The translations under genes were made by a program, and so were the position numbers. This document shows positions 54,235-64,000 of a DNA stretch of 64,000 bases, piece by piece. Each line of letters begins with the position of its first letter. Position 1 is the stretch's first letter. The DNA lies in NCBI GenBank assembly GCA_963732325.1, contig CAVSYZ010000003.1, forward strand, positions 31,079-95,078, in the 5' to 3' direction. The notes beneath the pieces are model-generated. The model was not told where the DNA came from. It made no database searches and saw nothing but the letters and a program-made list of their open reading frames with translations. The DNA comes from an uncultured Acidobacteriota bacterium (GTDB lineage Bacteria > Acidobacteriota > Terriglobia > Acidiferrales > UBA7541).

Positions 54235-56910
54235 CTATTCCCCGCTCTGCTCGATCAATTTGGCCACCAGAGCGGTCCAGCCGGTCTGATGGCTCGCGCC
54301 CAATCCCGCGCCAGTATCGCCGTTGAAATACTCGTAGAACAGAATCAGGTCGCGCCAGAACGGATCCTTCTGAAATAATTCCACATCGCCGTACACCGCG
54401 CGCCGCCCATCTTTCTGCAGAAAGATATGCGAAAGCCGGCGCGAAACTTCCTGGGCTACTTCCCAGAGCGCCTTCTGCTGCCCGGACCCAGTGGGACATT
54501 CCACCTTGAATCCATCGCCGTAATAGTGATGCACGCGCTGCAACGATTCGATCAGCAGGAAATTCAGCGGGAACCACACCGGCCCACGCCAGTTGGAATT
54601 ACCGCCGAACAAATCGCCCGTTGATTCGGCGGGCTCGTAATCCACCGCCTGTGAAACTCCGTTCACATTCAGGACGAACGGATGGTCCTTGTGATACTTG
54701 GAAAGCGCCCGGACGCCATGCGGCGAAAGAAATTCATTCTCATCCAGAAGGTATTTGTAGATGCGCTCGAGTTTTTTGCGATTCGCAATGCACAAAAACA
54801 CGCGGGCGCCTTTGTCCGTGCGCTGGGACATATCCACGTGCTCCGCAACGTCCGGATTGTGCGCCAGAAACCATTCCATGCGCTTGACGAAATCCGGTAC
54901 CCGCGCCAAATCCTCGGGCTCAAACGTCTCCGCTGCAAACAGCGAGGTCAAGCCGACGATGGACCGAACTTTCATTGGCAAAAGATTGGTGTTTCCCAGA
55001 TGCAGCACGTCGTAATAAAAGCCATCATTCTCGTCCCACAGGCCGATTCCTTCACCGCCGATATCGTTCATCGCCTGCGCGATGTACACAAAGTGCTCGA
55101 AAAATTTGCTGGCCACGTCCTCATACGCCGGGTCGTCGTGCGCCAGTTCCATGGACATCGCCAGCATGTCCAGGCAAAACATGGCCATCCAACTGGTGCC
55201 GTCAGACTGTTCGATGAAATTTCCCGGTCCCAGTGGCGACGACCGGTCGAACACACCGATGTTATCCAGACCCAGGAAACCACCTTCAAACACGTTCTTC
55301 CCTTCCGGATCCTTGCGGTTCACCCACCAGGTGAAATTGAGCAGAAGCTTGTGAAACATCCGCACCAGAAATTTACGATCTTGCTGGCCTTCCACGCGGC
55401 CGGCAATTTTATAAACGCGCCAGGCCGCCCAGGCCAGTACGGGCGGGTTCACGTCGGAAAAATTCCACTCGTACGCGGGAACCTGCCCGCTAGGATTCAT
55501 GTACCACTCGCGATGAAACAAAATCAGCTGCTGCTTCGCGAATTCGGGATCAATCAGCGCCATCGAAACGCAGTGGAACGCCAGATCCCAGGAGGCGTAC
55601 CACGGGTATTCCCAAGTGTCCGGCATGGAAATTACATCGGAATTGTAGAGGTGCGTCCATTCGTGGTTGCGGCCGAAATAGCGGCTCGCGTCCGGCTTCG
55701 GCTGCGTCGAATCTCCCTCCAGCCAGCGGCGGACATCATAGTGGTAGCTTTGTTTGCACCACAGCAGGCCCGCAAACGCTTGACGCTGCACGCGGCGTGC
55801 ATCTTCGCTCAGATTCGGGTCAATGCGCTTTTCGTAAAATTCGTCCGCCTCTTTCTTGCGCAGGTCGAAGATCGCATCAAACGCCGGGCCAAAGAGTTCC
55901 CGCGCCGGAGTGCGATTTTCCGCGATGTTCTGGTCCGTCAGCCGCGCGCGGATCGTCCAGCTTTGGCCCGGCGCGATTTCCGCCGCAAAATGCGCGGCGG
56001 CCTTCGTCCCCGTCATCGCAGGATTCACGGCGCCTTTTTCGCCGTTGATAAGGTACCGGTGGAAAGCGTCCTTGACATACGGAGTCTTGCTCTTCTGCCC
56101 GAACAGCCGCTCCATATTCGTCTCGTTGTCTGTGAAGAGCGGCTCCGGATTTCCTTCGATCACCAGCCAGCGCTGGCTGTAATGGAATTCGGTCAGCTCC
56201 AATAACTCCCCGCCTTCGTATCCCGCCACGCGCGCGGCTTGCGGCGTGTTGTACGGATCGCCCCAGTCCCAGCGATTGCGAAACCACAGCGTAGGCAGCA
56301 GATGCAGCCGCGCCGCTTGGGGACCGCGATTCCATGCGGTAACGCGGATCGCAATATCTTCGAATGTGACTTTCGCGTATTCCACGAAAATGTCGAAGTA
56401 GCGATTCTCCGCGAACACCCCGGTATCAATCAGCTCGTACTCGGGCTGGTGCCGCGTGCGTTTGGCGTTTTCTTCGCGCAGCTGGTCATAAGGGAACGCC
56501 GCGTGCGGATACTTGTAGAGAAATTGCAGATAGGAACTGGTGGGCGTCGCGTCCAGATAGTAGTAATACTCTTTTACGTCCTCGCCGTGATTCCCTTCCG
56601 CGTTGGTCAGACCGAAAAGCCGCTCCTTCAGGATGCGATCTTTTTCGTTCCACATTGCCAGGCCGAAACAGATGTGCTGGTGGCGGTCGCAGAAGCCGGC
56701 GATGCCATCTTCTCCCCAACGATAGGCTCGCGAGCGCGCGTGATCGTGCGGAAAATAATTCCACGCGTCGCCGTTCGCGCTGTAATCCTCGCGCACGGTG
56801 CCCCACTGCCGCTCCGCCAGGTAAGGGCCCCAGCGTTTCCAGTGCGCGTAGCGCTCGGCGCTGGCTCGCAGCCTCTGCTCTTCGGCTGTCAACTCGCGTT
56901 CCATGCTCAT
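54235..56910 (-). CDS. GH63-like glucosidase (MGH1-like glycoside hydrolase family)
   Basis: 891 aa. [49 protein letters not shown]...[23 protein letters not shown] matches the conserved N-terminus of this family, and the C-terminus is consistent with an (alpha/alpha)6 domain. Confidence 0.85.
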
Positions 56911-57289
56911 CCCTTATCGGCCATGTTTGGCACAGTCATGATACCGGGATTCCTGCCAGGCAAAGTGCGACAGACATTATCGGTGGCGTTCAATCCCGAA
57001 GAACTCTACCCGTTGCGGCAGCGTATTGGCAAGCGCGCCGCTTGCACGCATACTCTGCTAGGCGATGCTGCGCTCTCCGGGTTGCAAGCGCCGACTGTCC
57101 AACTGACGCGAGGCGTGCGAGTGGCGCAACGCGCGCTCAATTCGTTATTCTCTGACGGTTCGCCGTGGAGACTCACTTCCGGATGCGGCAATTCTCAATG
57201 GGACGAAAACCATTCACTCGAGCGTAATCACCGAACCCACATCGCAGCCTGCGTCGCGCGCATCCGCAGACTCGCCGCGCCTGGCGCTA

Positions 57290-58933
57290 TTGCTCGTGGC
57301 CGTTGCAGCCACGGCCGTGATCGCGCCCATGTTTTTTCTCGGCAACGCGTCCGGCCACGATTTCCAGTTTCATCTGGCTTCCTGGCTCGATGTTGCCGGC
57401 CAGTGGCGCGAAGGCTTTTTTTTCCCGCGCTGGGCCGAATGGGCTAATTGGGGCTACGGCGAGCCGCGTTTCGTTTTTTATCCTCCCGGCTCCTGGATGC
57501 TCGGCGCGGCTCTCGGCACGCTGCTGCCGTGGAAAATGGCACCAGGAGCATTCATCTGGCTCGCGCTTTTGCTCGCCGGATATTCGATGTGGCGATTCGC
57601 GCGCGAGTGGCTCACGCCTCGCGAGGCCGCAGCTGCCGCAGTCCTCTACGCCGTAAATCCGTATCACCTGATCATTGTGTATTACCGCGCCGATTTCGCC
57701 GAGCTGCTGGCAACCGCGCTGTTTCCGCTGGCACTGTGCGGCATGGTGGGCTTGCTGCGCGAAGGTTGGCGCGGTCTGCATTTCGTCGCTGTTCCGTTCG
57801 TGCTGATCTGGCTGGCGAACGCGCCCGCCGCGGTGCTCGCAACTTACTCGCTGATGTTGCTGTGCTTCGTAGCGTCCATTTTGCGGCGTGGCCGTCGGCC
57901 CCTGCTTCTGGGCGGTGCTTCCATGGCTTCGGGCTTCGGCCTCGCAGCGTTCTATGTTTTTCCAGCGGCTTACGAACAGCGCTGGGTGCAAATTCGTCAG
58001 GTTTTCGCCGATCTCTTGAGCCCGGACCAAAACTTCCTGTTCACGCACGCGATCGATCCCGAATTCCTGTTCTTCAACTGGAAGGTTTCAGGCGCGGCCA
58101 TGGGAGTGATGCTCCTTACCGGCATTGCCGCCGTAATTGTGGCGCGACGCCGCCGGGAGTTTCCGGAGATCTGGTGGATGCTTCTGGTTCTCGGCTCCGC
58201 AGCGGTGTTGCTGATGTTTCCTCCCAGCATGTTTTTGTGGCGCGTGCTGCCGAAGCTGGAATTTGTTCAGTTTCCCTGGCGCTGGCTCGGCGTGCTGGAT
58301 TTCGTGTTCGCGTTTTTTCTCGCCGCGGCACTCGGGCGCGCCAAGCGGCCTTGGCTTGGCGGCCTGGCGATCGCTATTGTTCTGACGACGTTGGCAGCCG
58401 CCCTGGTGTATGACGGCTGGTGGGATAGCGAAGATATTCCGGTCCTCACCAAGTCCATTCAAACCGGCCGCGGCTACGAAGGCACCGACGAATATCAACC
58501 GCTCGGCTGCGATCGCTACGAATTGCCAGGCAGCGACCCCGAAGGCGAAATAATCGGCAGGCCCGCGCCGCGCATTCAGGAGTTCATCGCGGAAACAAAC
58601 GTTCTCAAACCCGCGCCCGAGCGCACCGTGCACATCGAGCGTTGGAACGCAAACGAGAAGCGCCTTACGACGCAGAGCGCAACGCCAGTCACGCTAGCGC
58701 TGCGCCTGCTGAATTATCCAGGATGGCACATACAAGTGGACGGCAAATCCGCTCGGCTTAACGCAGCTCCAGAAACCGCTCAAATGCTGGTAGCGCTTCC
58801 GGAAGGCGCTCATCAAGTCGAAGTGAAGTTCACCAGCACATGGGATCGCATCGCAGGCGCCATAATCTCCGCAATTTTCGCAATCCTGCTCGTCGCATAC
58901 TTGATCTTCATTCGCTTGTCACGCAAATCGTAG
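57290..58933 (+). CDS. Polytopic membrane protein, GT-C-like / COG5617-type domain (start approximate)
   Basis: 547 aa with more than 10 predicted TM segments. N-terminal GHDFQFHLASWLDVAGQWREGFFFPRWAEWANWGYGEPRF motif. TTG start as given in the track. Confidence 0.65.
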   Translation: MLVAVAATAVIAPMFFLGNASGHDFQFHLASWLDVAGQWREGFFFPRWAEWANWGYGEPRFVFYPPGSWMLGAALGTLLPWKMAPGAFIWLALLLAGYSMWRFAREWLTPREAAAAAVLYAVNPYHLIIVYYRADFAELLATALFPLALCGMVGLLREGWRGLHFVAVPFVLIWLANAPAAVLATYSLMLLCFVASILRRGRRPLLLGGASMASGFGLAAFYVFPAAYEQRWVQIRQVFADLLSPDQNFLFTHAIDPEFLFFNWKVSGAAMGVMLLTGIAAVIVARRRREFPEIWWMLLVLGSAAVLLMFPPSMFLWRVLPKLEFVQFPWRWLGVLDFVFAFFLAAALGRAKRPWLGGLAIAIVLTTLAAALVYDGWWDSEDIPVLTKSIQTGRGYEGTDEYQPLGCDRYELPGSDPEGEIIGRPAPRIQEFIAETNVLKPAPERTVHIERWNANEKRLTTQSATPVTLALRLLNYPGWHIQVDGKSARLNAAPETAQMLVALPEGAHQVEVKFTSTWDRIAGAIISAIFAILLVAYLIFIRLSRKS

Positions 58934-59067: not shown

Positions 59068-61521
59068 CTACGATCCCCGGTACAACTCGAACGGCGCCCA
59101 ATAGAATGGCCGACGATAGACGCCGCCGGAATGTAGAAGCGCCAGTTTCGCGTCGCGCAAGGCCGCATCCGGCGGGACACCCTTGCCGATTTCGGAATAC
59201 AGATGGTCCATCAGCTGCGGCGTGGAATTATCGTTCACTTCCCATAGCGCGGCGATCACGCCATGCGCGCCGGCGCGCAAGAATGCCCAGGACAAACCGA
59301 CCAGGCCCTCCCCTGAATAAGTGCGCACGCCCTCGCCGTGGCACGCGGATATCGTGACCAGGTCGGCATGCAGAGGATGCTGAATGATGTCGCGGGCGTA
59401 GAGTTTGTAATCGTCTCCTTGCTTGGAAAGAATTACGGCCGAATCGAGCGGGCTGGTGCGGCTCGCCGTGCCGTGCGCTACAAAATGAATGTTGGAAAAA
59501 TCGGCGGGCTGGCTCTTCAGATACGAATCGGGCGTCGCCTCCGCGCCGGAAAAAACCGTGCGCTCGGCCGCGGGGAAATAATTCTCGATCCCCGTCATTT
59601 CCGCCGCGGCCTGCGGCAATTTCGGAAATTCCGCGTCCGGCGAAACGGGATCGCCCACTAGCAAAAGTTTCTTTGCAGCAGCCGCGTGCCGCGAAGCCCC
59701 AGCCGCCAGCAGCGTCAAAGAATTGGCGTACGATACGTCCACATCCTCAATCCAGTAATGCAATTCCGGCGCAGGCGCCAGCAAAGTCTCGAAATTCAAT
59801 CCATACAGGCTGCCATCCGGCAATATCGTGACCCGCGCCCCCTTCGGAATCATTTTCGCAGCCGGCGCCACCAACAAATCATAAAGCTTCCGCCCCGCCG
59901 CATTCTGCGTCTCCAACACGTCGCGCGACCCCAGCAGCGCCTGCCGGTAAGCCTGCACCAACGGATCAATCTCCTTCGCCGGCGGCAAACTGAAAAGCTG
60001 CACCCGCTCCGGCCTGATCACCCACACATACGAATGTTCTCCTCCCAGCCAGTAGGAGAGAATCGTAGCGTTCAAGCGTTTCGCAATTTGGCGAGGATTG
60101 AAGTCCTTTATTGGAAAGCCGGCGGAAGTGGAGTTGATGCCAAGCCCTTCGGCTAAAGTTCGCGCTCGACTCACTTCGGCCACCTGCAGCGCGTCCTTTG
60201 TTCTCCGATGCGAAACCAGAAAATCGGCATAATCGCCGTAGAGGTCTATCGAATCAGATAGGACTGACAAACGAGAATCTGCCCGCCGCAGCGACGATCG
60301 AGAAGATTCAATCGTCGCCATTGCATTTCGGAACTGTACCTCGGCATCCGCCGCTCGATTTTCGGCCGCAAAGACATTGGCAAGACCCGCTTGCGCATAC
60401 CACAGAAGGGATCGGTCGTCGCTGTCTTCCCGAATCACCGTGAGAAAGTCGGACTCTGCTCGATGGAAGTCCTCTCTTCCCGTTGCGATGTGGGCTTCCG
60501 TGAAAAGCGAATAGAGTTCTGGCAGGCGATCGTCGGTCGCATGTTCCAAAGCCAGCGCTTCGCGATTATGTTGCTCCGCTTCGTCATATCGCTTGCCGGT
60601 AAGGTCCACGACTGCAAGATTGCTCAGGCACACTGCCGTCATGGCCTTGTTCTCTAGTCTTTTCGCGATGTCCAGGGCCTGCTTGAAATTCTGCGCTGCC
60701 GCTGTGTAAGAATGTTGGTCATACTCAATCGAACCGATGTTCATCAGCCAGATCATAATGTCTTTATCCACGTGCAATTCGATCGCAACGGCCTTTGCAT
60801 CCGCAAGCAGGGAAAGAGCTCGCTCGAAATCTCCCATCTTGTAATAACTCCGCGCCAGGTTTCCAGTGACCTTTTCCGTCGCAATTCGGGCTTGGAGATT
60901 ATGAGAAAGATCCAGAGCTTGCATGTTCCAGTCAATTGATTCGTCGAAGCGTTGCTGGGTCATGGAAACGTACCCAAGGCTGCCAAGAGCCTTGAGCATT
61001 AGGAATGTCTGATTTTTCTCTCGGGCAAGTTGGAGGGACTTGCGATAGGCAATTTCAGCGGAAGGAAGGTCACCGCGTGCTACGGCCAAGTTACCGCGGC
61101 TCAAAACGACTTCGCCCATCAGGTCGGACCTGCTCGACTGCGCGAGGCGCTCCGCTTCGTCAACATGCCGATCCGCGTCATCCGATTCCTGCAATGCAGA
61201 GTCGGCAAGGCCTCGCAGAATCTCACGGTGCACAGCGATGTCGCCGCTGCGGAATGCCGCGGGTAATTCCGGATCTAAGAGTTGGAGTGCGTCTCTGTCC
61301 AAGCCGCGCCAAACGAGGACTTCCGCGTCAAGCATCCGAAAACGCAACGCCCAATCTTCGTCGCGCCCGCTGAACCGCTTGTATGCGGCGTCGGATTCGT
61401 TGAACGCGCCCACGAGGTCGCCGTGCTGAAACTTTTGCTGCGCATCTTGGTAAACTGCCGCGGGCTGCCGGGTTAGTGCCGTCCCCCCGCAACCCGAAAC
61501 TCCCAGAACCCAGCACAACAA
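59068..61521 (-). CDS. TPR-repeat CHAT-domain (caspase-like) protease; 5' end ambiguous (track start 61770 is a TTG overlapping the upstream gene by 238 nt)
   Basis: C-terminal CHAT domain: LLLVGDPV...NIHFVAHGTAS (catalytic His) and DLVTISACHGEG (catalytic Cys). There are 8 or more TPR-like repeats in the middle. A hydrophobic N-terminal segment LVLLCWVLGVSGCGG carries a lipobox-like VSGC. Confidence 0.8.
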   Translation of the reverse strand: MLCWVLGVSGCGGTALTRQPAAVYQDAQQKFQHGDLVGAFNESDAAYKRFSGRDEDWALRFRMLDAEVLVWRGLDRDALQLLDPELPAAFRSGDIAVHREILRGLADSALQESDDADRHVDEAERLAQSSRSDLMGEVVLSRGNLAVARGDLPSAEIAYRKSLQLAREKNQTFLMLKALGSLGYVSMTQQRFDESIDWNMQALDLSHNLQARIATEKVTGNLARSYYKMGDFERALSLLADAKAVAIELHVDKDIMIWLMNIGSIEYDQHSYTAAAQNFKQALDIAKRLENKAMTAVCLSNLAVVDLTGKRYDEAEQHNREALALEHATDDRLPELYSLFTEAHIATGREDFHRAESDFLTVIREDSDDRSLLWYAQAGLANVFAAENRAADAEVQFRNAMATIESSRSSLRRADSRLSVLSDSIDLYGDYADFLVSHRRTKDALQVAEVSRARTLAEGLGINSTSAGFPIKDFNPRQIAKRLNATILSYWLGGEHSYVWVIRPERVQLFSLPPAKEIDPLVQAYRQALLGSRDVLETQNAAGRKLYDLLVAPAAKMIPKGARVTILPDGSLYGLNFETLLAPAPELHYWIEDVDVSYANSLTLLAAGASRHAAAAKKLLLVGDPVSPDAEFPKLPQAAAEMTGIENYFPAAERTVFSGAEATPDSYLKSQPADFSNIHFVAHGTASRTSPLDSAVILSKQGDDYKLYARDIIQHPLHADLVTISACHGEGVRTYSGEGLVGLSWAFLRAGAHGVIAALWEVNDNSTPQLMDHLYSEIGKGVPPDAALRDAKLALLHSGGVYRRPFYWAPFELYRGS

Positions 61522-61532
61522 GACTAAATCTA

Positions 61533-62381
61533 TCAGGGAAAAGTAGTGCCACCGCCGCCAGTGGTCGGGCCGACGGTTGCGCCGGCGCTGGGCGATCCCA
61601 GCTCCAGGCGCAGCATGGTCACTTGGCGCTCGTACTGCTGCAGCATCACTTCGCCCAGATAGACTTTGCCGAACTGCGGCACCTCGATCACATTGCCGTA
61701 TACTTTCAGCTCCCCGCAATTGTCCTTGAACTCCCCGCAACACGTCTTGAATCCTTTTACCAGCGAACAAAGTACGATCCCCTTCGACTCCGGGAAGTCA
61801 TCTCCCGCGAACCAGTTATACCGTTCGCGGAGGAAATCCGGTACTTCGAACTTGGGCTTGCCCCATAGAAAAATGGACTGCATGCGATCGCGGTATTGCT
61901 GATCGCCCTTGTACGCTTTCCTGAAAGCTTCGAACGTGCCGAAGCGGTTGAATAAATCGGTGTCCAGTTCCACCTCAATCGGGCAGCCGGCAATCCGCAG
62001 GTTTTCGAAATGGCTGCCGATCGGTGTGATCGTCGGCTCGACGTCAGTTATAAGTTGTTTCGACGCCACACGCGCCACGATGCGGTCCGCCGTAACCATG
62101 TCGAGAATGTTCAAGCCCTCGATCGTGGACGACGCGAGCGTCGTGTAGCTTCCATCCTTTTCATTCCGGCTGCCGGCCACCTCCGTGTGCGCAGCGGTGT
62201 ACGAGATCGTCTCATTCAGGCGAAAATTCTCCCGGCGCGATACCTCGTAGCCGCCTTCTGTCGGCAGCGACGCGCCCGCATGCACATCCAAAACATGCTG
62301 GAACGGCCGGTCAATGCGTCCGCCAAAGCCGTAACCGTGAGCGTTGTAGAGATAAATCTTCTTGATGGGGTCGGTCGGCAT
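61533..62381 (-). CDS. Orphan 282-aa protein (no signal peptide, no TM segment)
   Basis: ATG is preceded by a strong AGGAGG SD. MPTDPIKKIYLYNAHGYGFGGRIDRPF... Cys cluster KTCCGEFKDNCGE and Gly/Thr-rich tail GPTTGGGGTTFP. It sits between the anti-sigma and CHAT genes. I recognise no family. Confidence 0.7.
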   Translation of the reverse strand: MPTDPIKKIYLYNAHGYGFGGRIDRPFQHVLDVHAGASLPTEGGYEVSRRENFRLNETISYTAAHTEVAGSRNEKDGSYTTLASSTIEGLNILDMVTADRIVARVASKQLITDVEPTITPIGSHFENLRIAGCPIEVELDTDLFNRFGTFEAFRKAYKGDQQYRDRMQSIFLWGKPKFEVPDFLRERYNWFAGDDFPESKGIVLCSLVKGFKTCCGEFKDNCGELKVYGNVIEVPQFGKVYLGEVMLQQYERQVTMLRLELGSPSAGATVGPTTGGGGTTFP

Positions 62382-62414
62382 CGGAATTAACCTCCTGCCT
62401 CAGAAATGGATTAT

Positions 62415-63149
62415 TTATTGCGAGACAACAAGTGTGAATGGATAGCGAGCTACTTCGGCGGCACTGCCGGTTGCGCTGCCGTGCGTCCCAAGTCCGCGCA
62501 CAACCAACTCGTGCTTGCCGGGCCCCAAGCTTGAAGATGGAATCAGCAACTGCACGGCATTCTTAGCTTGTTCGGTGGAAATGTTCAAGGAATATTCCGC
62601 CGCGCCGGCGGAATTTACAATTTCATAGATGTACGAGGAGTAATGTTCGTCCGGAGGAATATCAAAATACAAACTGAACGGCTGACCCGGAGCAACCGTC
62701 ACCGTCAACGGCTCACCACCGCGCGAGCCCGCCGTGATCAGTGAGAACGAAGCGAGCGCTTGCGGTGCAGCTGTCGCCAGCGCACCAGCGGACTGCGGCC
62801 CCGCACCCTTGAGCCGCGGAATCACCAAAAAACTTTGGTACGCCACTAGCAGCAACAGCGCTGCGAACACCGGCACCGCGAAGCTCGGCCGCAAGAACGC
62901 GCCGAACCACCCGCTTGCAGCCGGACGCTCTCTCGTCGCACTCACCGGCAGACGGACGGGCGGCGTCACGGGCTCGGATCCCATAGCCGCCCGGCTATTT
63001 TCAACGAACGCCGCCGCCAGGCTCAGCTCTTCCGCGCATTCCGCGCAGCCGAAGAAGTGCTCCTCGTATTGTTCGCGGAGGTCGCTCGGTAGCTCTCCGA
63101 GGACGTACCGCTCAGCGGCTTTCAATTGGATAGCTTGTATGTGTTCCAT
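62415..63149 (-). CDS. zf-HC2 anti-sigma factor, single-pass membrane protein
   Basis: MEHIQAIQLKAAERYVLGELPSDLREQYEEHFFGCAECAEEL (H-x3-C-x2-C), TM segment FAVPVFAALLLLVAYQSFLVI, and a beta-rich extracytoplasmic C-terminus. Confidence 0.85.
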   Translation of the reverse strand: MEHIQAIQLKAAERYVLGELPSDLREQYEEHFFGCAECAEELSLAAAFVENSRAAMGSEPVTPPVRLPVSATRERPAASGWFGAFLRPSFAVPVFAALLLLVAYQSFLVIPRLKGAGPQSAGALATAAPQALASFSLITAGSRGGEPLTVTVAPGQPFSLYFDIPPDEHYSSYIYEIVNSAGAAEYSLNISTEQAKNAVQLLIPSSSLGPGKHELVVRGLGTHGSATGSAAEVARYPFTLVVSQ

Positions 63150-63204
63150 GTATTCCGTCCTACCAGTAGTGACCCAGGACCCCAAATCGTTTCATCCAGC
63201 TTCC

Positions 63205-63864
63205 CTATTGTTTCGCGGTCCGCGGCCCCTCCGCCCCGCTCTTCTCATAGAAAACGCGGAAGTTGTTCTTAGCGCGATGCAGCAACACCCTCAAATAGTC
63301 GCGATCCACACCAAATTCCCTGCAAACCTGGTCTTTCTCCTTTTCTTCCAGGAAGATAGCGCGCAGCAAGCGCCGTTCCTTTTCGGGAAGCTGCTGCAGC
63401 ACCTTCCTCACCTGTTCGCGCGTCTCCTTGCTTACCAGGAAGCCATCCAGATCCAGCACTTGGTCGATGGGTTCCGCTGTATCTTCATCCAGCTGCGTGC
63501 CGTGATTCGAGGATCGGTAAAACTCCTGCAACACATTGTTGCAAACAGAGTTAACGAAGGCCCCGAGCCTTTCCGGCTGCCTGATTCCCGTTTCAGAACT
63601 CATCGCCTTGAATACCCGCAGAAACGTTTCCTGCGCGATATCCTCTACAGCCTGCGACCCGCGCAAGCGTGACCTCAGCTTAATGACCAGCAGTTTTCGG
63701 AAGTAGGCAACGAAGTGCTGCTCCGTCGGGAAGTCCCGTTCCCGGAGACGTTTAAGGTAGGCCTCATCGAAGGAGAAAAATTCCACGCGAGCCTCGAAAG
63801 GGAAGCGAGAGTATATCCTGCCCCGGATGAACTGCGCAATCGAACGCCTGTCCAGGTCTGCCAC
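63205..63864 (-). CDS. ECF-type RNA polymerase sigma-70 family factor
   Basis: Region 2 DIAQETFLRVF and region 4 LPEKERRLLRAIFLEEKEKDQVCREFGVDRDYLRVLLHRAKNNF. Confidence 0.88.
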   Translation of the reverse strand: MADLDRRSIAQFIRGRIYSRFPFEARVEFFSFDEAYLKRLRERDFPTEQHFVAYFRKLLVIKLRSRLRGSQAVEDIAQETFLRVFKAMSSETGIRQPERLGAFVNSVCNNVLQEFYRSSNHGTQLDEDTAEPIDQVLDLDGFLVSKETREQVRKVLQQLPEKERRLLRAIFLEEKEKDQVCREFGVDRDYLRVLLHRAKNNFRVFYEKSGAEGPRTAKQ

Positions 63865-63919
63865 ACCTTAAGGCAGCTCGCGCCCTGCTGCTTGCACCGA
63901 TTAGGCCCTCCACAAAGTA

Positions 63920-63937
63920 TTTCATTCGCGAATGAAA
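63920..63937. promoter_or_regulatory. Perfect 18-nt palindrome upstream of the ECF sigma gene
   Basis: TTTCATTCG|CGAATGAAA, 56-73 nt upstream of the sigma ATG. Confidence 0.4.
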
Positions 63938-64000
63938 CGTTTCGTCGCACGAGCGCACTACTGTGCGTACTTGTACTGAGACTGGATTGGGAGCTCAGAT

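What the first reader, a model, noticed from the sequence alone, without database searches (positions are those of the whole stretch)
59068..63937. Operon of ECF sigma, zf-HC2 anti-sigma, orphan 282-aa protein and TPR-CHAT caspase-like protease
Four co-directional minus-strand genes have short gaps (55 nt, 33 nt, then abutting or overlapping). The sigma/anti-sigma pair is ordinary. The two downstream genes are not: a cytoplasmic-looking 282-aa orphan and an ~820-900-aa TPR-CHAT protease. The orphan has a strong AGGAGG SD, a CCGEFKDNCGE cysteine cluster and a Gly/Thr tail. The protease has an intact His (HFVAHG) and Cys (ISACHGEG) dyad. Two established precedents make this combination interesting. 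In type III-E CRISPR (Craspase), the TPR-CHAT protease Csx29 cleaves Csx30, a protein that controls an ECF-type sigma factor. In bacterial gasdermin operons, a ~240-300-aa effector is activated by an adjacent CHAT/caspase-like protease carrying repeat domains. No cas genes or CRISPR array are present here. This could therefore be a stand-alone proteolysis-gated sigma-factor switch or effector module. My inference is that the 282-aa protein is the best candidate substrate or adaptor.
Basis: partly seen in the sequence, partly recalled or inferred. Interest (0 to 1): 0.7.

Follow-up and report, generated by a model that had tools for sequence, protein, structure and literature searches.

The report
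Sigma switch with exported CHAT protease
This is a four-gene unit conserved across soil Acidobacteriota: a stress-type sigma factor, its membrane anti-sigma factor, a protein of unknown fold (DUF8256) and an exported caspase-like protease that probably cuts the anti-sigma factor from outside the cell membrane, a split form of the only studied system of this kind.

Summary
Four co-directional minus-strand genes exist with gaps of 55 nt and 33 nt and a 238-nt overlap. The order sigma, anti-sigma, 282-aa protein, TPR-CHAT is kept in all 80 species-level genomes examined, down to 35% identity.

Three points need correcting.
- The 282-aa protein is not an orphan. It belongs to Pfam DUF8256, which has about 1,700 clusters at 50% identity.
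- The cysteine cluster is a lineage-specific 21-nt tandem duplication.
- The CHAT protein is an exported lipoprotein. It has an invariant lipobox Cys and an invariant His/Cys dyad.

DUF8256 has no signal peptide, so CHAT cleaving it is topologically unlikely. Its confident AlphaFold model resembles neither gasdermin nor Csx30.

The closest solved relative of the CHAT domain is Myxococcus DdvA, an anti-sigma factor fused to a periplasmic TPR-CHAT. I therefore read the cassette as a split DdvA-like switch. In this reading the lipoprotein protease cuts the anti-sigma factor's disordered periplasmic linker, which licenses intramembrane proteolysis and sigma release. This step is inferred, not shown.

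DUF8256 is an obligate CHAT partner. Elsewhere it is fused to cytosolic CHAT proteases, once beside a bacterial gasdermin. In this lineage the CHAT gene appears to start at a conserved TTG 78 codons inside DUF8256, in the -1 frame.

Verdict: new variant of a known kind. Interest 0.6.

The parts
63920..63937 (.). Perfect 18-bp palindrome TTTCATTCGCGAATGAAA in the intergenic region upstream of sigma. Candidate operator.
   Evidence: It occurs once in the window. The TTTCA-N8-TGAAA form is kept at the same place in about 12 close relatives.
63810..63840 (-). Conserved promoter-like element ATTGC-N20-TATACT, 24 nt upstream of the sigma start.
   Evidence: TATACT is nearly invariant in about 70 of 73 loci and lies 26-32 nt before the start. 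It occurs once in the 64-kb window against 0.02 expected. In related loci it is found only upstream of sigma.
63205..63786 (-). ECF-type sigma factor, 193 aa, GTG start. The mechanical ORF extends to 63864.
   Evidence: TIGR02937 8.4e-19; Sigma70_r2 and r4_2. The start codon is GTG in 58, TTG in 9 and ATG in 6 of 73 orthologues at the conserved VEFFSFDE motif, with GAGG upstream.
62415..63149 (-). Single-pass zinc-type anti-sigma factor, 244 aa.
- Cytoplasmic three-helix domain with His3, His31, Cys35 and Cys38 (HFFGCAEC at 63036-63059).
- TM helix at about 62826-62888.
- Disordered periplasmic linker at about 62763-62825.
- Ig-like beta-sandwich at about 62424-62753.
   Evidence: The four zinc-ligand residues are invariant in 36 orthologues (they are H15, H43, C47, C50 in ORF numbering). 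The profile hits the RslA anti-sigma factor 3hug_B at 4e-4. AlphaFold gives helices 3-55, TM 88-108, pLDDT<50 for 109-129, and a beta domain 133-242 at pLDDT 85-92. Foldseek finds only generic Ig/cupredoxin-like sandwiches.
61533..62381 (-). DUF8256 protein (Pfam PF26784; passes NCBIfam choice-of-anchor P), 282 aa. It has a strong AGGAGG ribosome-binding site and no signal peptide.
   Evidence: AlphaFold: pLDDT 84.5, pTM 0.83, long beta hairpins plus a helical insert at 142-188. No structural or sequence relative in PDB, BFVD, Pfam or PADLOC.
61710..61751 (-). 21-nt tandem duplication that creates the 'CCGEFKDNCGE' cysteine cluster. Lineage-specific 7-aa insert.
   Evidence: TRF: period 21, 2.0 copies. 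The insert is present only in the window and its closest relative in alignment A1.
61768..61784 (-). Internal translation start for the CHAT gene inside DUF8256, in the -1 frame. AAGGGG lies at 61779-61784 and TTG at 61768-61770.
   Evidence: At the invariant Cys205 codon the -1-frame codon is TTG in 43, GTG in 13, ATG in 2 and CTG in 5 of 63 loci. T precedes this Cys codon in 67% of loci against 29% before other Cys codons (binomial P about 5e-10, treating loci as independent). The Gly201 codon is GGG or GGA in 92% against 42% overall.
61533..61770 (-). 238-nt out-of-frame overlap. It encodes the C-terminal 79 aa of DUF8256 and a 78-aa Arg-rich N-terminal extension of the CHAT precursor.
   Evidence: The -1 frame stays open for 75-134 codons in overlap-type loci. 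The mean is 86.5 codons, against 38 for synonymous shuffles and 33 for the +1 frame. Most loci have no canonical start within 40 codons of the signal peptide.
61489..61536 (-). Lipoprotein signal: hydrophobic core LIDLVLLCWVLGVSG plus the lipobox Cys94 (61489-61491). It starts exactly at the DUF8256 stop codon.
   Evidence: The Cys is invariant in 37 orthologues. Non-overlap loci have ordinary ATG-initiated lipoprotein signals such as MSGLRSQRLALLVLALSLALLWQGC and MATGIRKLKTSLVLSLLLDTGC.
59068..61770 (-). TPR-CHAT lipoprotein precursor, 900 aa. TPR region at about aa 185-540. CHAT domain at aa 624-896 (59083-59901). Catalytic His766 at 59473-59475 and Cys810 at 59341-59343.
   Evidence: Pfam CHAT 3.7e-52; TPR_12, TPR_10 and TPR_MalT. 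The dyad is invariant. The CHAT-domain profile's best PDB hit is 8rot_B/8rw5, a 991-aa chain that I assign to DdvA by length and domain position, at E 5.4e-5. Csx29 scores 0.068 and separase 0.3.

Best explanation
This is an Acidobacteriota-wide ECF sigma signalling cassette. I read it as a split version of the Myxococcus DdvS/DdvA system.

**Shown by computation.**
- The sigma factor (193 aa) is paired with a single-pass zinc-type anti-sigma factor. The anti-sigma factor has a cytoplasmic three-helix domain, one TM helix, a roughly 20-residue disordered periplasmic linker and an Ig-like beta-sandwich.
- The last gene encodes a TPR-CHAT protease with a lipoprotein signal and an invariant His/Cys dyad. 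It therefore sits on the periplasmic side, in the same compartment as the anti-sigma factor's linker and sandwich.
- DUF8256 has no export signal and has the strongest ribosome-binding site of the four genes. It is always encoded immediately before the CHAT gene.
- In this lineage the CHAT gene starts at a weak TTG 78 codons inside DUF8256, in the -1 frame.

**Inferred.**
- A periplasmic or envelope cue sensed by the TPR array activates the CHAT protease.
- The protease acts as a site-1 protease in trans and clips the anti-sigma factor's periplasmic linker or domain.
- An RseP-type site-2 protease then cuts within the membrane. The cytoplasmic remnant is degraded and sigma is released.
- DUF8256 is a dedicated CHAT partner, either regulator or sensor. 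In this cassette it acts on the cytoplasmic side, perhaps on the CHAT precursor's Arg-rich N-extension or on the sigma/anti-sigma complex. Its exact role is unresolved.
For: - **Conserved unit.** Gene order is the same in all 80 kept loci from species-representative genomes, at 35-94% identity, and in three further short metagenome contigs holding more distant DUF8256 members. In the cultured Tunturiibacter empetritectus the anti-sigma gene stays next to DUF8256 and CHAT even though no sigma gene is adjacent.
- **Operon structure.** Gaps are short and there is a single conserved promoter-like element upstream of sigma.
- **Anti-sigma architecture.**
- **CHAT is a lipoprotein with an active dyad.**
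- **Closest solved relative.** The CHAT-domain profile's best PDB hit is 8rot_B/8rw5, which I assign to DdvA, at E 5.4e-5. Csx29 scores 0.068 and separase 0.3.
- **Precedent.** In DdvA a periplasmic TPR-CHAT is proposed to cut the linker next to the TM helix. Removing that domain permits RseP-dependent degradation (PMC11506125).
- **DUF8256-CHAT link independent of sigma.** Fusion proteins P0144, P0387-P0391 and the independently diverged P0414 show it.
- **Internal start.**
Against: - No cleavage has been shown, either here or for DdvA, where autoproteolysis is still a hypothesis.
- The similarity to DdvA is remote (25.8 bits) and limited to the CHAT core.
- The conserved promoter (ATTGC-N19/20-TATACT) lacks the AAC -35 motif usual for ECF-dependent promoters. 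Autoregulation is therefore not evident, and no regulon was identified.
- The model gives no necessary role to DUF8256, although DUF8256 is the most tightly linked component and is predicted to be on the other side of the membrane from the protease.
- One family member (P0232) carries a Tat-like N-extension, which hints at a periplasmic role in at least one lineage.
- The signal-peptide and lipobox call rests on pattern and conservation, not on a dedicated predictor or an experiment.
Confidence: 0.5

Rival explanations
1. Output-module reading. The sigma/anti-sigma pair is an ordinary envelope-stress switch triggered by other proteases. DUF8256 and the CHAT lipoprotein are simply co-transcribed products, for example a periplasmic processing, quality-control or defence protease with a cytoplasmic helper. 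In this reading CHAT does not act on the anti-sigma factor.
For: - DUF8256+CHAT exists as a module without sigma or anti-sigma elsewhere.
- The promoter looks like a housekeeping-sigma promoter rather than an ECF one.
- The anti-sigma periplasmic domain is a generic Ig-like sandwich with no recognisable CHAT docking feature.
Against: - The strict four-gene linkage across deep divergence is hard to explain if the two halves are functionally independent.
- The anti-sigma gene is retained next to DUF8256-CHAT in Tunturiibacter, where sigma is not adjacent.
- The protease and the anti-sigma factor's disordered linker share a compartment.
- The nearest solved CHAT relative is itself part of an anti-sigma factor.
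Confidence: 0.25
2. First reader's reading. DUF8256 is the substrate or effector of the CHAT protease, as Csx30 is for Csx29 or gasdermin is for its protease. Its cleavage either gates the sigma factor or releases a toxic activity.
For: - DUF8256 and CHAT are obligately adjacent.
- Their translation is overlapped.
- DUF8256-CHAT fusions exist, one immediately upstream of a bacterial gasdermin.
- CHAT proteases are the commonest gasdermin activators (bioRxiv 10.1101/2021.06.07.447441).
- One homologue carries a Tat-like signal.
Against: - The predicted compartments differ. CHAT is a lipoprotein and DUF8256 has no signal peptide in the window or in the other members whose N-termini were read, with the exception of P0232.
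- The confident model has no similarity to gasdermin or Csx30.
- In the gasdermin locus DUF8256 is the protease's own N-terminal domain. The effector is a separate, genuine gasdermin.
- PADLOC has no match.
- No DUF8256 was found on viral contigs.
Confidence: 0.12
3. Frameshift-fusion reading. DUF8256 and TPR-CHAT are made as one membrane-spanning polypeptide by programmed -1 ribosomal frameshifting near the DUF8256 stop codon. This would recreate the fused architecture seen elsewhere, with a TM segment between the two parts.
For: - The CHAT frame is -1 relative to DUF8256 in nearly all loci.
- The hydrophobic segment begins exactly at the DUF8256 stop codon.
- Most loci lack a canonical start codon near it.
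- Natural DUF8256-CHAT fusions join at the equivalent point.
Against: - Only 4 of 73 loci have any X XXY YYZ slippery heptamer in the last 80 codons, and never at a conserved position.
- A conserved TTG/GTG start with a purine-rich Shine-Dalgarno-like element 7-9 nt upstream explains the open frame.
- Acidobacteriaceae and Bryobacterales loci have separate genes with ordinary ATG starts.
Confidence: 0.03

Closest known systems
DdvS/DdvA of Myxococcus xanthus: an ECF sigma factor with a transmembrane anti-sigma factor carrying a periplasmic TPR-CHAT domain (PMC11506125; PDB 8rot/8rw5, assigned by me to DdvA)
   Same: - ECF sigma factor.
- Class I zinc-type anti-sigma domain and a single TM helix.
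- A flexible periplasmic linker.
- A TPR-CHAT module with a His/Cys dyad on the periplasmic side.
- It is the best solved match to this CHAT domain.
- Proposed logic: CHAT cleavage, then RseP, then sigma release.
   Different: - Here the TPR-CHAT is a separate lipoprotein, not the anti-sigma factor's own C-terminus.
- The anti-sigma factor has its own Ig-like periplasmic domain.
- A third protein, DUF8256, is obligatory.
- No CBASS or CRISPR genes were seen within the cassette, and its flanks vary between loci.
- The host phylum is Acidobacteriota. DdvA-like fusions were reported only in Myxococcota and one Comamonas.
- Sequence similarity is remote.
Type III-E CRISPR Craspase: Cas7-11 with Csx29 (TPR-CHAT), Csx30, Csx31 and an ECF-like sigma factor (PMC10028731, PMC9729208)
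   Same: A TPR-CHAT protease is genetically linked to an ECF-type sigma factor. The logic is a proteolytic switch.
   Different: - No Cas7-11, Csx30/Csx31 relative or CRISPR array was found.
- The NCBIfam Csx29 model scores 19.7 bits against a cut-off of 300.
- This protease is exported, whereas Craspase is cytoplasmic and RNA-activated.
- DUF8256 does not resemble Csx30.
Bacterial gasdermin operons with CHAT or caspase-like proteases (bioRxiv 10.1101/2021.06.07.447441)
   Same: A CHAT protease is adjacent to a protein of about 250-280 aa. DUF8256 itself occurs as the N-terminal domain of a CHAT protease encoded directly upstream of a genuine bacterial gasdermin (L096).
   Different: - The 282-aa protein here is not a gasdermin.
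- Its CHAT partner is periplasmic.
- No gasdermin gene is present in the cassette.
Canonical regulated intramembrane proteolysis of anti-sigma factors (RseA with DegS and RseP; knowledge of the pathway)
   Same: A single-pass anti-sigma factor holds an ECF sigma factor. A periplasmic site-1 cut is needed before the site-2 protease can act.
   Different: The candidate site-1 protease is a caspase-like Cys protease lipoprotein encoded in the operon, not a DegS-type Ser protease. There is also an additional cytoplasmic DUF8256 component.
ECF54 group, whose gene neighbourhoods contain CHAT, subtilase and carboxypeptidase genes (PMC8999054)
   Same: A genomic association between an ECF sigma factor and a CHAT-domain protein, with proteolytic control proposed.
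   Different: ECF54 is described as lacking an anti-sigma factor. Here a clear zinc-type anti-sigma factor is present. Membership of this sigma factor in any numbered ECF group was not tested.

Membership tests
DdvS/DdvA-type TPR-CHAT anti-sigma system | ECF sigma factor paired with a class I zinc-type anti-sigma domain | tested here: met
   TIGR02937 8e-19. Invariant H/H/C/C motif and a profile hit to RslA 3hug_B at 4e-4. Three-helix N-domain in the model.
DdvS/DdvA-type TPR-CHAT anti-sigma system | TPR-CHAT domain is part of the anti-sigma polypeptide, as its periplasmic C-terminus | tested here: not met
   The anti-sigma factor is 244 aa and ends in an Ig-like sandwich. TPR-CHAT is a separate lipoprotein gene two genes downstream.
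DdvS/DdvA-type TPR-CHAT anti-sigma system | Periplasmic location of the TPR-CHAT, with a conserved His/Cys dyad | tested here: met
   Lipoprotein signal with an invariant Cys, plus invariant His766 and Cys810. Location is predicted, not measured.
DdvS/DdvA-type TPR-CHAT anti-sigma system | CHAT-dependent removal of the periplasmic domain followed by RseP cleavage | not testable with these tools
   Needs biochemistry or genetics. For DdvA only the RseP step is demonstrated.
Type III-E Craspase (Csx29/Csx30) | Association with Cas7-11 (gRAMP), a CRISPR array and Csx30/Csx31 | tested here: not met
   No array in the window. No cas gene was seen in the cassette neighbourhoods whose gene tables were inspected, and those flanks vary between loci. 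DUF8256 matches nothing in PDB, which holds Csx30 complexes.
Type III-E Craspase (Csx29/Csx30) | The protease is a Csx29 orthologue | tested here: not met
   NCBIfam NF041237 scores 19.7 bits against a cut-off of 300. The profile scores E 0.068 against Csx29 chains.
Bacterial gasdermin system | A gasdermin-fold protein next to the protease | tested here: not met
   A high-confidence DUF8256 model has no gasdermin among its Foldseek hits. The profile search against PDB found nothing. By contrast, the true gasdermin in L096 is detected by sequence alone.
Pfam DUF8256 (PF26784) / NCBIfam choice-of-anchor P (NF040603) | Sequence match above the family threshold | tested here: met
   NF040603 scores 37.5 bits against a cut-off of 27, covering residues 16-138. 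All 120 listed homologues, and the called genes in related loci, carry PF26784 on record. PF26784 is not in the local Pfam copy, so the window protein itself was not scored against it.
Bacterial lipoprotein (Lgt/LspA substrate) | N-terminal positively charged region, hydrophobic core, and lipobox ending in an invariant Cys | tested here: met
   A lipobox-like motif is found in 69 of 76 loci. The Cys is invariant in 37 aligned orthologues. Non-overlap loci have textbook signals. No dedicated predictor or experiment was available.
Programmed -1 ribosomal frameshift | A conserved slippery heptamer X XXY YYZ at the frame junction | tested here: not met
   Only 4 of 73 loci have one, at non-conserved positions.

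The most novel reading that the evidence does not exclude
DUF8256 is a previously unrecognised dedicated partner domain of CHAT proteases, acting as a sensor, a securin-like regulator or a pro-domain. The pairing would be ancient. It appears fused in cytosolic proteases, including a gasdermin-activating one, and split in Acidobacteriota. In the split form it would be wired across the inner membrane to an ECF sigma/anti-sigma pair. The cassette would then be a two-sided proteolytic relay. Cytoplasmic DUF8256 and a periplasmic TPR-CHAT lipoprotein would jointly decide the fate of the anti-sigma factor, possibly as an immune or envelope-threat sensor like DdvS/DdvA. The conserved 71-78-codon out-of-frame overlap would set their stoichiometry, or would provide a cytoplasmic Arg-rich handle on the protease precursor.
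Probability: 0.2. Interest if true: 0.8.

Novelty: new variant of a known kind. Interest (0 to 1): 0.6.

Why it matters
DdvA is described as the only characterised anti-sigma factor with a TPR-CHAT module. It is reported to have a narrow distribution, in Myxococcota and one Comamonas. Its key step, CHAT-mediated cleavage, remains unproven, partly because protease and substrate are one polypeptide (PMC11506125).

This cassette shows that the same logic probably exists in hundreds of Acidobacteriota species. Here the protease and the presumed substrate are separate proteins, so trans-cleavage can be tested directly with purified parts. One cultured strain carries the module: Tunturiibacter empetritectus M8UP27.

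The finding also gives a first functional context to a large domain of unknown function, DUF8256. It links that domain to CHAT proteases in general, including one in a gasdermin operon.

Finally, it points to a rare, phylogenetically conserved long same-strand gene overlap with an internal TTG start. Current gene callers miss this start, so the protease's export signal is cut off in public annotations.

Tried and rejected
1. **Gasdermin-, Csx30- or anti-sigma-like fold for the 282-aa protein: rejected.** Foldseek against PDB and BFVD gave nothing at E<=1e-3. The weak top hits were outer-membrane beta-barrels at TM about 0.15, which is not meaningful. The profile search against PDB, Pfam scans of 68 members and PADLOC were all empty.
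2. **CHAT start at the stop-overlapping NTG codon, at the TTG codons just after the DUF8256 stop, or at the ATC at 61596: rejected.** No canonical start is conserved there. Several loci have no canonical start at all between the Cys205-region TTG and the lipobox.
3. **Programmed -1 frameshift: rejected**.
4. **Tat export of CHAT with DUF8256 hitch-hiking: considered and not adopted.** Loci free of the overlap have Sec-type lipoprotein signals without a twin-arginine motif. The Arg-richness in overlap loci is confounded by the Gly-rich codons of the other frame.
5. **Internal sigma-70-type promoter TTCACA-17-AATAAT before DUF8256 (62410-62438): rejected.** It is not above chance and is not conserved beyond close relatives.
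6. **A second copy of the sigma-upstream promoter motif, to define a regulon: none found** in the window or on the divergent side of related loci.
7. **Single-sequence search of CHAT against PDB** returned only TPR proteins. The full-length profile was swamped by TPR hits. A CHAT-domain-only profile was needed.
8. **ECF re-classification paper:** its supplements are not held, so the numbered ECF group could not be assigned.
9. **DUF8256 on viral contigs: none**.

Full report
**What is there**

The window's last 5 kb holds four co-directional minus-strand ORFs.
- The first is an ECF-type sigma factor. It matches TIGR02937 at 8.4e-19 and the Pfam models Sigma70_r2 and r4_2.
- Aligning 18 orthologues shows that conservation begins at VEFFSFDE. 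The codon there is GTG in 58, TTG in 9 and ATG in 6 of 73 loci, and GAGG lies just upstream. The gene is therefore 63205-63786, 193 aa, not the 219-aa mechanical ORF.
- The second gene starts at the invariant Met13 of its ORF, giving 62415-63149 and 244 aa.
- The third gene (61533-62381) has ATG preceded by AGGAGG. This strong ribosome-binding site is kept in nearly all related loci.
- The fourth ORF (59068-61770) carries TPR repeats and a CHAT domain at 3.7e-52.

**The 282-aa protein is not an orphan**

- It passes NCBIfam NF040603, choice-of-anchor P, at 37.5 bits against a cut-off of 27, over residues 16-138.
- It has 688 homologues in the word-indexed search. All those listed carry Pfam PF26784, named DUF8256 in the gene tables.
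- A profile search of 1.84 billion representatives found 1,700 clusters at E<=1e-3. Almost all are stand-alone proteins of 240-300 aa.
- The literature library has no paper mentioning DUF8256.
- The 'CCGEFKDNCGE cysteine cluster' is a 7-aa insert found only in the window's closest clade. It is produced by a 21-nt tandem duplication at 61710-61751. Only Cys205 is invariant.

**The cassette is conserved**

- Scanning one genome per species (GTDB) gave 442 tblastn-confirmed DUF8256 stretches. The 80 best are almost all Acidobacteriota: Acidiferrales/Acidoferrum, other Terriglobia and Bryobacterales. One is a cultured strain, Tunturiibacter empetritectus M8UP27.
- In every locus where the contig allows, the order is sigma, anti-sigma, DUF8256, TPR-CHAT. 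This holds down to 35% DUF8256 identity.
- The same is true for eight metagenomic places and for three short contigs holding more distant DUF8256 members.
- Tunturiibacter is the one variant. Its order is DUF8256, CHAT, anti-sigma, with no sigma gene adjacent.
- Flanking genes differ between loci.
- A divergently transcribed pair lies upstream of sigma in 61 loci: a 149-aa weakly ABM-like protein and a protein of about 90-130 aa. In the window this pair would lie beyond position 64000.
- A promoter-like element, ATTGC-N19/20-TATACT, sits 26-32 nt before the sigma start in about 70 of 73 loci. It occurs once in the window, at 63810-63840, and only upstream of sigma in related loci. It lacks the AAC -35 motif typical of ECF-dependent promoters (my knowledge). 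I cannot say which sigma factor reads it.
- There is no conserved internal promoter or terminator. A single operon is the simplest reading.

**The anti-sigma factor**

- His15, His43, Cys47 and Cys50 (ORF numbering) are invariant. The profile of 36 orthologues hits the zinc-binding anti-sigma factor RslA (3hug_B) at 4e-4.
- AlphaFold on 43 sequences gave a mean pLDDT of 67.7. It shows a three-helix N-domain (3-55), a disordered cytoplasmic linker, a TM helix (88-108), a disordered periplasmic linker (109-129, pLDDT<50) and a confident beta-sandwich (133-242, pLDDT 85-92).
- Foldseek places the sandwich among generic Ig-like and cupredoxin-like domains.

**The CHAT protein is an exported lipoprotein**

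- In the CHAT reading frame, a hydrophobic stretch followed by a lipobox-like G/A/S-Cys begins exactly at the DUF8256 stop codon in the window (LIDLVLLCWVLGVSG|C) and in almost all related loci. A lipobox-like motif is present in 69 of 76 loci.
- The Cys is invariant in 37 aligned orthologues, as are the catalytic His766 and Cys810.
- In Acidobacteriaceae, Bryobacterales and Tunturiibacter loci the gene is separate or barely overlapping. There it starts with ATG and has a textbook lipoprotein signal, for example MSGLRSQRLALLVLALSLALLWQGC or MATGIRKLKTSLVLSLLLDTGC.
- The protease domain is therefore predicted to be on the periplasmic side. That is the same compartment as the anti-sigma factor's linker and sandwich.
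- DUF8256 has no hydrophobic N-terminus in the window or in the members whose N-termini were read. The one exception is P0232, which carries a Tat-like extension (MALTRKQFLDTAGRGALGAAL...).

**Where the CHAT gene starts**

- Most loci have no ATG, GTG or TTG within 40 codons upstream of the hydrophobic core. Many also have none between the DUF8256 stop and the lipobox.
- The CHAT frame is -1 relative to DUF8256. It stays open for 75-134 codons upstream of the stop. The mean is 86.5 codons, against 38 for synonymous-codon shuffles of the same genes and 33 for the +1 frame.
- At the invariant Cys205 codon of DUF8256, the -1-frame codon is TTG in 43, GTG in 13, ATG in 2 and CTG in 5 of 63 loci. 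In the five CTG loci another TTG lies one or ten codons away.
- In 61 loci scored, T precedes this Cys codon in 67% of cases, against 29% before 843 other Cys codons in the same genes. The binomial P is about 5e-10 if loci are treated as independent, which overstates significance.
- The invariant Gly201 codon is GGG or GGA in 92% of loci, against 42% for Gly codons overall. This creates GGAG or AAGGGG 7-9 nt upstream.
- I conclude that the CHAT gene starts at TTG 61770. It overlaps DUF8256 by 238 nt and makes a 900-aa precursor. Its first 78 residues are Arg-rich: the median N-region has 14 K+R against 6 D+E.
- TTG 61719, at the second semi-conserved Cys, is an alternative start.
- Programmed -1 frameshifting is not supported. 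Slippery heptamers occur in only 4 of 73 loci, at varying positions.
- Public gene calls for orthologues give 737, 759 or 814 aa and cut off the signal.

**What DUF8256 looks like and where else it occurs**

- AlphaFold with 68 sequences gave pLDDT 84.5 and pTM 0.83. The model is built from long beta-hairpins with a helical insert at 142-188.
- Foldseek found nothing at E<=1e-3 in PDB or BFVD. No gasdermin or Csx30 chain is among the top hits.
- The profile search against PDB, Pfam scans of 68 members and PADLOC are all negative.
- DUF8256 does occur as the N-terminal domain of cytosolic CHAT-type proteases:
  - P0144 and five related clusters (837-899 aa; His in YFYCHG, Cys in INACHS). P0144 lies beside VirB4/VirB3/TrbC/SSB genes and has no sigma or anti-sigma gene nearby.
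  - The independently diverged P0414 (908 aa; Pfam CHAT and DUF8256 both on record).
- The P0414 gene is followed 25 nt later by a genuine bacterial gasdermin. Bact_GSDM is on record for it, and it matches 8sl0_A at 2.9e-7 and 7n51_A at 4.6e-7.
- The same C-terminal protease module also occurs with HEAT-repeat or other N-terminal domains.
- In gasdermin systems, domains fused to the proteases are thought to couple ligand recognition to cleavage (bioRxiv 10.1101/2021.06.07.447441).
- DUF8256 is therefore best seen as a CHAT-partner module (sensor, regulator or pro-domain), not as an effector.

**Closest known system**

- A CHAT-domain-only profile of 27 orthologues has as its best PDB hit 8rot_B/8rw5, a 991-aa 'CHAT domain-containing protein', at E 5.4e-5. 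I assign this chain to M. xanthus DdvA because its length and the matched region (831-978) fit the published CHAT domain at 702-991.
- Csx29 scores 0.068 and separase 0.3.
- DdvA is a zinc-type anti-sigma factor whose periplasmic part is a TPR-CHAT. The authors propose signal-induced CHAT cleavage of the linker next to the TM helix. They show that DdvA lacking the TPR-CHAT is degraded in an RseP-dependent way. They call DdvA the only characterised anti-sigma factor with a TPR-CHAT, found in Myxococcota and one Comamonas (PMC11506125).
- A review notes CHAT genes near ECF54 sigma factors that lack anti-sigma factors (PMC8999054).
- I found no description of the cassette reported here.

**Most likely mechanism**

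- Shown: the architecture, the topology predictions, the conservation, and the relationship to DdvA.
- Inferred: the TPR-CHAT lipoprotein senses a periplasmic or envelope cue and acts in trans as a site-1 protease on the anti-sigma factor's disordered linker or Ig-like domain. An RseP-type protease then cuts in the membrane and sigma is freed.
- DUF8256 is abundant, to judge from its ribosome-binding site, and is predicted to be cytoplasmic. It is an obligate partner whose role is open. It may act on the protease precursor's Arg-rich N-extension before export, or on the sigma/anti-sigma complex.
- I give this model 0.5.
- Rivals:
  - The sigma pair merely co-transcribes a DUF8256/CHAT output module (0.25).
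The compartment mismatch and the lack of fold similarity weaken it. The fusions and the one Tat-bearing homologue keep it alive.
  - A frameshift fusion (0.03).

**What remains unexplained**

- How a cytoplasmic DUF8256 communicates with a periplasmic protease.
- Why the start codon moved 71-78 codons into DUF8256 in one large lineage.
- Which sigma factor reads the conserved promoter.
- What the regulon is.

**Verdict**

This is a new variant of a known kind: a split, three-component relative of DdvS/DdvA that is widespread in Acidobacteriota. It comes with an unusual conserved gene overlap and a first context for DUF8256. Interest 0.6.

Noticed in passing
window 63920-63937: Perfect 18-bp palindrome TTTCATTCGCGAATGAAA about 135 nt upstream of the sigma start. 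The TTTCA-N8-TGAAA form is kept at the same place in about 12 close relatives. Possible operator for a dimeric regulator in the divergent intergenic region.
   Followed up: partly
L009 3282-4312 and the equivalent place in 61 loci (beyond the window's end at 64000): A divergently transcribed, conserved gene pair lies upstream of sigma: a 149-aa protein with a weak ABM (ferredoxin-like) match at 4.9e-4, and a protein of about 90-130 aa with no family match. The conserved unit may therefore be six genes, and the window cuts it.
   Followed up: partly
L096 816-4334: A DUF8256-CHAT fusion protein (P0414, 908 aa) is encoded 25 nt upstream of a genuine bacterial gasdermin (255 aa; matches PDB 8sl0_A and 7n51_A). 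I found no description of DUF8256 as the N-terminal domain of a gasdermin-associated protease.
   Followed up: partly
L089-L092 (gene at 8001-10670 in L089-L091 and at 1861-4530 in L092) and L095 7001-9667: A second family of DUF8256-CHAT-like fusions (P0144, P0387-P0391). In L089-L091 it lies next to VirB4/VirB3/TrbC/SSB conjugation genes. A small 75-88-aa gene precedes every fusion gene inspected. The same protease module also occurs with HEAT-repeat or other N-terminal domains.
   Followed up: partly
P0232 (JGI 3300043331, 3.3-kb contig, no DNA held): One DUF8256 homologue has a 44-aa N-terminal extension that looks like a Tat signal (MALTRKQFLDTAGRGALGAAL...). It sits in an otherwise normal-looking cassette: a 231-aa gene upstream and a gene of more than 497 aa downstream.
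   Followed up: no
window 61710-61751: A 21-nt tandem duplication inside DUF8256 adds 7 aa and makes the local Cys-rich motif. It also adds codons to the overlapping CHAT N-extension, which shows that both frames tolerate the insert.
   Followed up: yes
window 61549-61564 (minus strand): A small GC-rich hairpin (CCACTGGCGGCGGTGG) lies 14 nt before the DUF8256 stop codon, inside the overlap. Its significance is unknown. Terminator-like sites in the region are not above chance.
   Followed up: no
L010 and L017 (both from assembly DATFZY01, Candidatus Acidoferrum sp. SMAG_U9581): The same metagenome-assembled genome carries two diverged copies of the cassette, at 86% and 64% identity to the window's DUF8256. 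Paralogous cassettes can therefore coexist.
   Followed up: no
L001 9071, L002 3772, L005 8801 (called CHAT gene starts): Public gene calls for orthologous CHAT genes differ by up to 77 aa. They omit or truncate the lipoprotein signal, so automated annotation would label these proteases cytoplasmic.
   Followed up: yes
window 54235-58933: Downstream of the cassette lie a convergent 547-aa multi-pass membrane protein and an 891-aa protein. By position and size these correspond to the PTPS_related and MGH1-like/GH63-like genes next to the cassette in L001. The window proteins themselves were not scanned. L001 additionally has lactate-utilisation (LUD/CCG) genes inserted between the cassette and these two genes, so the cassette boundary sits right after the CHAT stop.
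   Followed up: no
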